From: Octopus vulgaris
Taxonomy: Eukaryota
Direction: 5' to 3'
DNA length: 64,000 bases
Assembly: GCA_951406725.2 (NCBI GenBank)
Contig: OX597815.1
Location: 66,650,001-66,714,000 of the forward strand
Part shown: positions 10,261 through 49,875 of the stretch, one piece after another
Layout: each line of letters starts with the position of its first letter
How positions within the stretch are numbered: the first letter of the stretch is position 1
The notes under the pieces: generated by a model
The model's database searches: none
Seen by the model: the letters and a program-made list of their open reading frames with translations, nothing else
What the model was told of the DNA's origin: nothing
Translations under genes and position numbers: made by a program

Positions 10261-10642
10261 TATATTGAGGGTACTACTATTCGTAGATACCAACACGCTA
10301 AGAGGGACCAATGCGGTCAAAACTACTAAAAATAAACAAAATTTTACCGAATGCAAAACTTCAAAACACATCATTTTAAAAAGAATTCAGTTACATATCA
10401 CATGTGATTTCGCATTTAATGCAGAATATGCATTTCATGTTCGTCAGTGCAACAAACTCAAGAAATATAAGAAAAAACATAACATTACAAACTCGATAGC
10501 CAACCGTAGAATTCGTCGTAGCATGTACGAATGTTTATCCTTACATATCTATGAAAATGGCGGGCTTTTTCGCAATGCATTTCGGTAACAAATTGCCTAG
10601 TCGGAATAAAAATTCAGTATTGAACTATTCCGGTGAAAAAAT

Positions 10643-22011: not shown

Positions 22012-22219
22012 TGGTGATTATCACACACTGAAGACGGGTAACTACTCAGAAACCTGGGTCTGTGTGTATCACGTAAGGCTAAGGATGGTAGCGATGACCT
22101 CCCCTCGCAAATACTAATTGGACGCAGTCAGTGTGTTGTTAGCCAGCTGGAGAAGATGTCTTCCTGGGGCTAAAAACAACAGTAACATCGTGCTCTATGG
22201 AACCGCTACATTTAGTTGG

Positions 22220-22223
<4 letters not shown>
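22012..22223 (+). mobile_element. Partial diverged copy of the 353-bp HHR repeat family
   Basis: Colinear blocks are shared with the minus strand of the 353-bp unit: tgtgtatca, gatgac.tccc...gcaaatact, gccagctggag, cctggggctaaaaac.acagta.catc, tggcaaa. Confidence 0.8.
22014..22072 (+). ncRNA. Type I hammerhead ribozyme, diverged relative of the 353-bp family
   Basis: GUGAU-UAU-CACACA-CUGAAGA-CGGGUA-AC-UACUCA-GAAA-CCUGGG-UC^UGUGUG-U-AUCAC. The core is intact, with one C-A mismatch at the base of stem II. Confidence 0.85.
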
Positions 22224-22292
<69 letters not shown>

Positions 22293-39013: not shown

Positions 39014-39045
<32 letters not shown>

Positions 39046-39063
39046 TATATATGTATGTGTATG

Positions 39064-39095
<32 letters not shown>

Positions 39096-39293
39096 ATGAT
39101 AAATATCAAAGTGAGTTATATACAGTAGCGGTAACACATCGTGACGTATTTTTGCCATTTCAATATGGCTAACCCCTAAGGGTGGATGCTACTGTAGTTT
39201 TTAGCCCCAGGAGGACACACTCCTCCAGCTGGCCATAGACACACTTTCTGTGTCCTGTCATTATTTGCAAAGGGAAGTCATCCTTCCCGTCTT

Positions 39294-39363
39294 CAACTTA
39301 TGATACACACGGACTCGAGTTTCGAGGTATTGACCTCTCGTCAGCGTGTGACAATCATAGTTG
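39294..39363 (-). ncRNA. Type I hammerhead ribozyme, copy 1 (core 39306-39350)
   Basis: Minus strand reads CACACG-CUGACGA-GAGGU-CAAU-ACCUC-GAAA-CUCGAG-UC^CGUGUG, with all core nucleotides and stems I, II and III. Stem I extends via UAUGAU/AUCAUA and CAAC/GUUG beyond an internal loop. Predicted cleavage is between 39312 and 39311. Confidence 0.93.
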
Positions 39364-39646
39364 TCGCCGAGAATTAGATTTCCTTCACAAATACTTATAC
39401 TTTTTCCAGCGTCCACTGTCGCTGATATTGAAAAAGTGAAATCAAACAATGATAAATATCAAAGTGAGTTATATACAGTAGCGGTAACACATCGTGACGT
39501 ATTTTTGCCATTTCAATATGGCTAACCCCTAAGGGTGGATGCTACTGTAGTTTTTAGCCCCAGGAGGACACACTCCTCCAGCTGGCCATAGACACACTTT
39601 CTGTGTCCTGTCAGTATTTGCAAAGGGAAGTCATCCTTCCCGTCTT

Positions 39647-39716
39647 CAACTTATGATACACACGGACTCGAGTTTCGAGGTATTGACCTCTCGTCAGCGT
39701 GTGACAATCATAGTTG
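39647..39716 (-). ncRNA. Type I hammerhead ribozyme, copy 2 (core 39659-39703)
   Basis: Identical to copy 1, offset 353 bp. Confidence 0.93.
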
Positions 39717-40000
39717 TCGCCGAGAATTAGATTTCCTTCACAAATACTTATACTTTTTCCAGCGTCCACTGTCGCTGATTTTGAAAAAGTGAAATCAAAC
39801 AATGATAAATATCAAAGTGAGTTATATACAGTAGCGGTAACACATCGTGACGTATTTTTGCCATTTCAATATGGCTAACCCCTAAGGGTGGATGCTACTG
39901 TAGTTTTTTAGCCCCAGGAGGACACACTCCTCCAGCTGGCCATAGACACACTTTCTGTGTCCTGTCAGTATTTGCAAAGGGAAGACATCCTTCCCGTCTT

Positions 40001-40070
40001 CAACTTATGATACACACGGACTCGAGTTTCGAGGTATTGACCTCTCGTCAGCGTGTGACAATCATAGTTG
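40001..40070 (-). ncRNA. Type I hammerhead ribozyme, copy 3 (core 40013-40057)
   Basis: Identical to copy 1, offset 707 bp. Confidence 0.93.
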
Positions 40071-40311
40071 TCGCCGAGAATTAGATTTCCTTCACAAATA
40101 CTTATACTTTTTCCAGCGTCCACTGTCGCTGATATTGAAAAAGTGAAATCAAACAATGATAAATATCAAAGTGAGTTATATACAGTAGCGGTAACACATC
40201 GTGACGTATTTTTGCCATTTCAATATATATATATATATATAATAGAAATATTAAAATTACTAAGTCTCTCTAAGAATGCCATATTAGTATGGCGATAACT
40301 ATAACTATATA

Positions 40312-40610
40312 TCATCATCATCATCATCATCATCGTTTAACGTCCGTTTTCCGCGCTAGCACGGGTTGGACGGTTCGACCGGGGTCTGGGGAGCCAGAGG
40401 CTGTCCCAGGCTCCAGTCTGGTCTGGCAGTGTTTCTACAGCCGGATGCCCTTCCTAACGCCAACCACTCCGCGAGTGTAGTGGGTGCTTTTTACGTGCCA
40501 CCTGCACAGGTGCCAGAGGGGTCTGGCACCGGCCACGATCAGTTGGTGCTTTTTTTTTTTTTTTTTTTGTGCTACCGGCACAGAAGCCAGTCAAGGCGGT
40601 GCTGGCATCG
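40312..40610 (-). mobile_element. Short retroposon with (ATG)n tail and RTE-like 3' end
   Basis: (cat)n-cgtttaacgtcc...ggatgcccttcctaacgccaacc. A degenerate copy lies at about 53360-53480. Confidence 0.65.
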
Positions 40611-49062: not shown

Positions 49063-49102
49063 ATAGTGACTTCGAAGTTTCGGCTTGACCTCGTCAGACT
49101 GT
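49063..49102 (-). ncRNA. Minimal hammerhead ribozyme
   Basis: AGU-CUGACGA-GGU-CAA-GCC-GAAA-CUUCGAAG-UC^ACU. Intact core and palindromic stem III, but a short stem I. Confidence 0.65.
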
Positions 49103-49840: not shown

Positions 49841-49875
49841 GTTTCTGACGAAGAGCTCCGCTCGAAACGTTAAAT
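49841..49875 (+). ncRNA. Minimal (dimer-type) hammerhead-like motif within a ~210-bp dispersed repeat
   Basis: GUUU-CUGACGA-A-GAGC-UCC-GCUC-GAAA-CG-UU-AAAU. Stem III is reduced to the palindrome AACGUU. Confidence 0.55.

What the first reader, a model, noticed from the sequence alone, without database searches (positions are those of the whole stretch)
39294..39363. The HHR combines tertiary-contact features with a palindromic stem III
Seen: stem I continues past an asymmetric internal loop (UGU/U) into UAUGAU/AUCAUA and CAAC/GUUG. Loop II can be drawn as UCAAUA, and stem III is the self-complementary ACUCGAGU. Known: stem I bulge-loop II contacts give fast cleavage at physiological Mg2+ (S. 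mansoni HHR), and palindromic stem III permits double-hammerhead dimers between tandem copies. Inference: cleavage may depend on multimeric transcripts.
Basis: partly seen in the sequence, partly recalled or inferred. Interest (0 to 1): 0.7.

Follow-up and report, generated by a model that had tools for sequence, protein, structure and literature searches.

The report
Canonical animal retrozyme hammerhead ribozyme
This is a textbook animal-type self-cutting RNA motif, present three times in a small non-coding jumping-DNA repeat; its docking loops and short palindrome are the usual design of this class, and it likely cuts as a single copy, with pairing between neighbouring copies as a likely optional boost, so the finding is real but ordinary.

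Summary
Observation confirmed, on the minus strand. 39363-39294 is a type I hammerhead with a perfect core, a UGU/U internal loop, loop II UCAAUA and palindromic ACUCGAGU. It occurs identically three times in a 353-bp non-coding tandem array (39095-40226) set in TA microsatellite: a non-LTR retrozyme. The 'combination' is the published canonical metazoan design (PMC4209133), and Rfam's consensus has it too. With loop III left free, 40 of 42 metagenome matches were Watson-Crick palindromes (three loop sequences), and 31 of 31 well-paired ones had the same 3x1 loop. The palindrome looks selected: a diverged family copy at 22013 stays self-complementary, and a double-hammerhead fold is predicted 6.7-9.4 kcal/mol below two single active folds. 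Strict dependence on multimers is not supported: a coral monomer cleaves at about 0.8/min, and a review reports most invertebrate motifs cleave efficiently as monomers. I put monomer-competent with optional dimer boost at about 55%, dimer-dependent at 30%. Cleavage and expression are untested. The scan already noted retrozyme arrays elsewhere in this genome and palindromic stem III in another. New member of a known kind; low interest.

The parts
39294..39363 (-). Extended type I hammerhead, copy 1 (the finding)
39345..39350 (-). Stem I proximal, 5' strand CACACG (pairs with 39311-39306)
39351..39353 (-). Internal loop 1, 5'-strand side UGU (U-R-Y); last U 39351 is the predicted extrahelical pyrimidine (equivalent of S. 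mansoni IL1.C8)
   Evidence: sequence; equivalence inferred from PMC2632901 passages; URY in 31 of 31 well-paired matches
39305..39305 (-). U1.7, single-nucleotide side of internal loop 1; predicted reverse-Hoogsteen partner of the 3' A of loop II
   Evidence: (U in 31 of 31)
39354..39363 (-). Distal stem I extension, 5' strand CAAC-UAUGAU (pairs with 39304-39294, A39298 bulged)
39338..39344 (-). Catalytic core C3-U4-G5-A6-C7-G8-A9
39324..39337 (-). Stem II GAGG/CCUC with loop II UCAAUA (39333-39328; docking A at 39328)
39321..39323 (-). Core G12-A13-A14
39313..39320 (-). Palindromic helix III ACUCGAGU: 2 bp plus UCGA loop in one copy, 8-bp duplex (-10.7 kcal/mol) between two copies
39312..39312 (-). 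C17 of the GUC triplet; predicted cut between 39312 and 39311
   Evidence: cleavage itself untested
39647..39716 (-). Hammerhead copy 2, identical
40001..40070 (-). Hammerhead copy 3, identical
39095..40226 (-). Retrozyme array: 3.2 units of 353-354 bp, 99% alike, GC 42%, longest ATG ORF 38 aa; predicted unit RNAs 39664-39312 (353 nt) and 40018-39665 (354 nt)
39014..39095 (.). TA/CA microsatellite left flank; a short TA run also follows 40226
22013..22225 (+). Diverged partial copy of the same family (76% over 176 bp) with hammerhead 22013-22075: helix III ACCUGGGU, UAU/U loop, C.A mismatch at the base of stem II; runs into a TA tract

Best explanation
This is the canonical metazoan type I hammerhead motif of a 353-bp non-coding tandem repeat (a non-LTR retrozyme), and it likely cuts its own transcript as a single copy, with a double-hammerhead fold between neighbouring copies as a likely optional boost rather than a requirement. 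Shown: the motif, the array, the absence of a long ORF, and a family that is present as thousands of contigs in public runs. [quoted passage not shown] Inferred from structure: U39305 pairs with A39328 and U39351 enters loop II, which stabilises the active fold despite a 2-bp helix III. In a multimer, the two ACUCGAGU strands can instead form an 8-bp helix III after stem I strands swap.
For: Motif and chance tests. Array and non-coding state. High copy number: 4477, 2229 and 210 contigs laid in 3 of 4 runs. Same 3x1 loop and U1.7 in 31 of 31 well-paired metagenome matches (of 42). All four helices covary across 12 aligned motifs (covariation 0.748 vs 0.234 shuffled, 0 of 500 shuffles). Docking A of loop II shows no variant row while loop positions 2 and 5 vary in 3-8% of depth in 3 runs. 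Palindrome kept through change: UCGA here, UCGG in a loose-end consensus of 23 contigs, CUGG in the 22-kb copy; duplexes -10.7, -8.9, -9.8 kcal/mol, all in the top 20 of 256 loops. Literature: coral monomer about 0.8/min, mussel about 0.1/min, most invertebrate type I motifs cleave efficiently as monomers (PMC7761336 passage); RtcB circularisation in vitro. Folding cost of the single active form, 6.6 kcal/mol, is mid-range among 10 metagenome motifs (2.8-11.4).
Against: No cleavage or expression data for this element. In the nearest-neighbour ensemble a single copy almost never forms stem III (about 4e-5) and prefers a misfold. The double fold is 6.7-9.4 kcal/mol below two single active folds. 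PMC4209133 says such helices III impede monomer cleavage. Axolotl Amex2, also 2 bp plus tetraloop, cleaved only 22% per hour as a monomer and much better as a dimer. The 10 comparison motifs are themselves untested, so one search shows ordinariness, not activity. I did not see the coral or mussel stem III sequences (figures and supplement not readable). In a Xenopus study 8 of 9 predicted dimer elements gave no cleavage.
Confidence: 0.55

Rival explanations
1. Obligate or strongly dimer-dependent ribozyme. A single copy is trapped in a misfold and only the double hammerhead in multimeric transcripts cleaves at a useful rate, which would also keep unit circles from recutting.
For: Double fold 6.7-9.4 kcal/mol below two single active folds. 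Misfold pairs GAC/GUC (P 0.80) and GAG/CUC (P 0.61) in one copy. The inner pair of the palindrome cannot form in a hairpin, yet is complementary in 12 of 12 aligned motifs with 6 double-sided changes. Statements in PMC4209133, PMC3088659 (Figure S8 legend) and the axolotl data.
Against: Invertebrate monomers cleave in vitro. Intact 4-5 bp stem II and complete docking residues here. The double fold is itself rare in the predicted ensemble (0.01 and 0.0001), because each copy's own long stem I forms first and would have to be swapped. Energy models omit tertiary contacts.
Confidence: 0.3
2. The palindrome is an inherited or incidental feature with no effect on this ribozyme; only the single-copy fold matters.
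For: The changes within the family are all transitions, which often keep pairing through G.U by chance. The outer loop pair could simply stack in a hairpin. Only three distinct loop sequences underlie the 40 of 42 count.
Against: Five different loop sequences (AGCU, ACGU, GCGC, UCGA, CUGG) are all self-complementary, where 16 of 256 (Watson-Crick) or 36 of 256 (with G.U) are expected.
Confidence: 0.1
3. The array is a silent or inactive satellite; the motif is intact only because the copy is young.
For: Units are 99% alike, so lack of decay says little. In Xenopus 8 of 9 predicted elements did not cleave.
Against: The 76%-identical copy keeps core, docking residues and stems with compensatory changes. 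Family variants in the listable part fall on tolerated positions.
Confidence: 0.05

Closest known systems
Metazoan non-LTR retrozymes (coral, mussel, axolotl; Cervera and de la Pena 2020, PMC7229834; parts 2-4 of 6 read, supplement not readable)
   Same: Tandem non-coding units of 150-450 bp, GC under 50%, one type I hammerhead per unit, highly self-paired predicted circle. Mussel units are about 350-390 bp and axolotl Rtz_353 is the same length.
   Different: Different host and sequence family. Unlike the mussel motif, this one keeps the loop 1-loop 2 residues. Unlike axolotl Amex1 (1-bp helix III) and Amex2 (U.U at the base of stem II), it has a 2-bp helix III and an intact stem II. RNA not shown here.
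Canonical metazoan type I hammerhead / Rfam RF00163 (S. mansoni Sm-alpha type; PMC4209133 part 1 of 4 and passages; PMC2632901 passages)
   Same: 6-bp helix I, 4-bp helix II, hexaloop ending AAUA, U1.7, helix III of 2 bp with a palindromic tetraloop (Rfam consensus ACGcgCGU, drawn as 4+4).
   Different: Internal loop 1 is 3x1 (UGU/U) against 4x4 in S. mansoni. Loop II starts with U rather than C. Loop III is UCGA, not seen among the 42 metagenome matches. Score 32.2 bits is below the gathering score of 34.
Dimer-requiring hammerheads: newt satellite 2, ASBVd, minimal Penelope hammerheads (passages in PMC6155905, PMC4209133, PMC6765202; Lunse et al. PMC5785218 not held, seen only as a citation)
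   Same: Palindromic helix III able to pair between tandem copies.
   Different: Those have a 1-bp or absent helix III, and the Penelope ones lack the tertiary loops; this motif has both features intact.
Penelope-derived animal retrozymes (Li, Clavereau and Pollet 2026, 10.64898/2026.07.22.740005; part 1 of 5 and passages read, supplements closed)
   Same: [quoted passage not shown]
   Different: Their phylogenetic work is on vertebrates. No link of this unit to a Penelope pseudo-LTR was tested here.

Membership tests
Type I hammerhead ribozyme | Core CUGANGA, GAA, A15.1-U16.1, H17, and G10.1-C11.1 | tested here: met
Type I hammerhead ribozyme | Stems I, II, III around the core, with stem I open | tested here: met
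   22 of 22 drawn pairs Watson-Crick; covariation across 12 motifs
Rfam RF00163 Hammerhead_1 | Score at or above the gathering threshold (34 bits) | tested here: not met
   32.2 bits, E 8.5e-7, full-length match 1-45; a near miss that lowers formal Rfam membership only
Canonical metazoan type I hammerhead | Loop 1-loop 2 docking residues: U1.7, extrahelical pyrimidine, 3' A of loop II | tested here: met
   U39305, U39351, A39328 present; independent model 54.3 bits. Contact formation itself not testable
Canonical metazoan type I hammerhead | Helix III of 1-2 bp with a small palindromic loop | tested here: met
Type I hammerhead ribozyme | Self-cleavage after H17 | not testable with these tools
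   needs in vitro transcription
Non-LTR retrozyme | Tandem units of 150-450 bp, one type I hammerhead each, GC under 50% | tested here: met
   353-354 bp x 3.2, GC 42%
Non-LTR retrozyme | No protein-coding capacity | tested here: met
   longest ATG ORF 38 aa over both strands
Non-LTR retrozyme | Many genomic copies | tested here: met
   thousands of contigs at 80-100% likeness in runs X1 and X3; second copy in the window; no copy number can be given
Non-LTR retrozyme | Unit-length linear and circular RNA in tissue | tested here: inconclusive
   only contigs available; no holder on record as RNA
Non-LTR retrozyme | Mobilisation by a Penelope-like element; target-site duplication | not tested
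   no genome held; both flanks are TA repeat, so a duplication cannot be defined
Obligate double-hammerhead class (newt, ASBVd, minimal Penelope motifs) | Helix III of 0-1 bp or missing tertiary loops | tested here: not met
   2-bp helix III and complete docking residues
Obligate double-hammerhead class (newt, ASBVd, minimal Penelope motifs) | Monomer inactive, dimer active | not testable with these tools
   folding energies point both ways

The most novel reading that the evidence does not exclude
The palindrome is a built-in on/off switch. In the unit-length circle the core is locked by a misfold (G5-A6-C7 on the GUC triplet, the stem II arm GAG on the palindrome's CUC), and pairing with a second copy pulls the palindrome away and frees two active sites. 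That would answer the question left open in PMC7229834 of how animal retrozyme circles avoid recutting themselves. The idea is in print for viroids (cited in PMC4209133); a demonstration in an invertebrate retrozyme would be the new part. Against it: the 22-kb copy has neither C7 nor the GAG arm, so the lock is not family-wide.
Probability: 0.15. Interest if true: 0.45.

Novelty: new member of a known kind. Interest (0 to 1): 0.17.

Why it matters
As architecture it adds nothing new: the design is published and built into the Rfam model. Its value is as a clean test case. The literature disagrees on whether 2-bp palindromic helices III need a dimer, and why the palindrome is kept in motifs that can cut alone is unresolved. 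This family offers natural loop variants (UCGA, UCGG, CUGG) and a perfect young trimer for that assay. I found no paper describing a cephalopod retrozyme in the held library (searches 'hammerhead ribozyme + octopus', 4 listed of 5, and 'retrozyme + cephalopod', 1 listed of 2; listings only); unread supplements and closed journals may list one, and the host assignment is itself unchecked.

Tried and rejected
Rfam at gathering threshold over the whole window: 0 matches; the miRNA hits at relaxed threshold are TA-repeat artefacts. No genome held, so no genome-wide count of loop III variants. Sequencing runs: no RNA holder listed; this blank is no evidence on expression. Runs guessed as RNA hold the stretch, and X5 has an exact 158-base contig over 39294-39451, but the guess is unverified and was not used. 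One search was meant to test conservation of the palindrome. It listed variants only at 39677-39689, and known variants nearer the ends were missing, so I infer an end margin and treat it as uninformative for the palindrome. Variant shares are distorted because contigs split between two copies, and 23 rows were not shown. The pattern scan of viral contigs found 0. No metagenome locus resembled the 353-bp unit. The scan pattern fixed G10.1, C11.1, AAUA and AC..GUC, so those columns were not counted as evidence; 11 of 42 matches were dropped from the loop-1 count for incomplete or truncated stems. Pfam: 0 families in 25 of the 62 stop-to-stop frames of 110 aa or more, so no Penelope enzyme was found among them. 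Core-like matches at 10396, 13411 and 22527 were not recovered by the model and were set aside. Unconstrained folding never gave an active hammerhead as the ground state, in monomer, circle, dimer or whole array; rejected as a verdict on activity because the model lacks tertiary energies. The plus strand folds equally well but has no hammerhead core. Look-up of earlier notes by sequence and near this place returned nothing.

Full report
Observation. The finding describes the minus strand. The core is C3-U4-G5-A6-C7-G8-A9 (39344-39338) and G12-A13-A14 (39323-39321), and the predicted cut lies after C17 at 39312. Rfam RF00163 matches end to end at 32.2 bits (E 8.5e-7), slightly below its gathering score of 34, which is why the standard scan found nothing. 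A descriptor for core plus stems hit only the three array copies and nothing in 100 of 100 Markov resamples. A covariance model built from 10 metagenome hammerheads, without any window sequence, scores the three copies 54.3 bits and a fourth motif at 22013-22075 33.9 bits, against 11.9 for the best background.

Context. The motif sits once per unit in a 353-354 bp tandem array of 3.2 units, 39095-40226, whose units differ at 2-3 positions and whose three hammerheads are identical. The unit is 42% GC, has no ATG ORF above 38 aa, and both flanks are TA repeat. Cut-to-cut RNAs would be 353 and 354 nt and fold into a branched rod with the hammerhead at one end. A 76%-identical partial copy lies at 22013-22225 on the plus strand. 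In public runs the family is abundant: 4477, 2229, 210 and 1 contigs were laid in the four runs. The window is microsatellite-rich and looks like animal DNA; earlier notes of this scan call the genome octopus-like, which I did not check. This anatomy matches the non-LTR retrozymes of PMC7229834.

Is the combination unusual? No. PMC4209133 defines the canonical metazoan hammerhead as helices I (6 bp) and II (4 bp) interacting through conserved loop nucleotides, with a 1-2 bp helix III capped by a small palindromic loop. The Rfam consensus carries a palindrome at the same place and draws it as four pairs with no loop. PMC3088659 notes the same palindromic character (figure legend). I tested it independently by scanning metagenome contigs with a pattern that left loop III and all of stem I free: 42 matches in 39 loci, about seven or eight families. 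Of these 40 had a Watson-Crick palindromic tetraloop, one a G.U one and one neither, against 16 of 256 by chance. The count is inflated by one large family, and only three loop sequences occur (AGCU, ACGU, GCGC). Among the 31 matches with good stems I and II, all 31 had U at 1.7 and a U-R-Y triplet opposite, the same 3x1 loop as here. Across 12 aligned motifs all four helices covary, and the inner palindrome pair is complementary in 12 of 12 with six double-sided changes (relatedness is not controlled by the shuffle, but the slid controls fall to 30-39% paired).

Tertiary contact. [quoted passage not shown] The equivalents here are U39305, A39328 and U39351. The S. mansoni loop is 4x4, so the likeness is in residues, not size. 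Loop II begins with U and could close a fifth pair with the docking A (0.9 kcal/mol), but UAAAUA loops occur in another natural family. In three runs, loop II positions 2 and 5 vary in 3-8% of depth while the docking A has no row. The contact is inferred, not shown.

Is the palindrome selected in this family? Probably, on modest evidence. Three states are seen: UCGA in the array, UCGG in a loose-end consensus of 23 contigs and as a variant row, and CUGG in the 22-kb copy. All stay self-complementary, with duplex energies of -10.7, -8.9 and -9.8 kcal/mol, within the top 20 of 256 loops. The outer pair runs U-A, U.G, C-G, a compensatory path. All changes are transitions, which often keep pairing by chance, and I could not count variants genome-wide.

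Monomer or dimer. Folding energies cut both ways. In one copy the active drawing costs about 6.6 kcal/mol against the ensemble, stem III is almost never formed, and a misfold pairs GAC with the cleavage triplet (0.80) and GAG with the palindrome (0.61). In a two-copy transcript the double hammerhead is 6.7-9.4 kcal/mol below two single active folds but still rare in the ensemble (0.01 and 0.0001), because each copy's long stem I pairs locally. The 6.6 kcal/mol cost is the middle of the range for 10 metagenome motifs (2.8-11.4), so it is not a special trait. Experiments on relatives favour monomer competence in invertebrates: coral about 0.8/min and mussel about 0.1/min from single-unit clones, and PMC7761336 states that most invertebrate type I motifs self-cleave efficiently as monomers while amphibian ones need dimers. 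Against this, PMC4209133 says such helices impede monomer cleavage, axolotl Amex2 with a 2-bp helix but weakened stem II worked far better as a dimer, and 8 of 9 Xenopus dimers did not cleave at all. By inference, during transcription stem I of one copy can close 350 nt before the next copy exists, so single-copy cleavage gets the first chance. I therefore put monomer-competent with optional dimer boost at 0.55, dimer-dependent at 0.30, palindrome irrelevant at 0.10 and inactive at 0.05. Confidence that the motif is a canonical retrozyme hammerhead is about 0.9-0.95.

Mechanism. Shown: motif, array, non-coding state, multi-copy family. Inferred from studied retrozymes: transcription, cleavage to unit RNAs with 5'-OH and cyclic phosphate ends, RtcB-type circularisation, and reverse transcription by a Penelope-type element into new short arrays. 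Expression could not be judged here.

Papers seen. PMC7229834: parts 2-4 of 6; supplement not readable and may show the coral and mussel stem III. 10.64898/2026.07.22.740005: part 1 of 5 and passages. PMC4209133: part 1 of 4 and passages. PMC6155905, PMC2632901, PMC6765202, PMC7761336, PMC3088659, PMC2837043: passages. PMC5785218: not held. Nucleotide numbering (1.7, 10.1, 15.1) follows the standard hammerhead convention, partly recalled and partly.

Verdict. Real, correctly described, and ordinary: a new member of the canonical metazoan type I hammerheads in a non-LTR retrozyme. The remaining open point, whether the palindrome boosts, gates or merely accompanies cleavage, is a general question for the class that this element could test. 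Interest 0.17.

Noticed in passing
window 49068-49097 (-): Another hammerhead core with a different sequence: short stem II, 10-base palindrome ACUUCGAAGU at helix III (self-duplex -12.5 kcal/mol), poorly paired stem I; not recovered by the canonical model. Possibly a decayed Penelope-type motif.
   Followed up: partly
window 49845-49875 (+): Minimal hammerhead core with an extra A before stem II and almost no helix III (AACGUU palindrome), matching the description of Penelope pseudo-LTR minimal motifs in PMC4209133. It lies about 750 bp from the 49068 motif on the opposite strand.
   Followed up: partly
window 22013-22225 (+): Diverged family copy starts just upstream of its hammerhead and ends in a TA tract at nearly the same unit position where many public contigs pass into AT-rich flank (39494 and 39141), suggesting a preferred end point of insertions. 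It carries a C.A mismatch at the base of stem II that is also a common variant in runs.
   Followed up: partly
runs X16 and X13 laid on window 39095-39800 and 39644-39720: Each holds a single near-exact contig of the young variant and no diverged copies; the X16 contig is 383 bases, i.e. the unit plus 30, the form a closed assembly loop takes for either a tandem array or a circle. Trace carry-over would explain it; cannot be told apart.
   Followed up: no
one search run list: Near-identical sequence (60-79% of words) is held under nine organism labels; for at least three labels the family is present as hundreds of contigs with similar variant shares, so the young subfamily may span related species.
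   Followed up: no
L002, L021, L024 and other loci: Several metagenome hammerheads lie in inverted (head-to-head) pairs 230-450 bases apart rather than in tandem, an arrangement in which one transcript cannot form a double hammerhead, yet their loops III are palindromic.
   Followed up: no
window 40320-40560: A GC-richer stretch beginning after a (CAT)n run looks like a separate interspersed repeat inserted next to the array; identity not tested.
   Followed up: no
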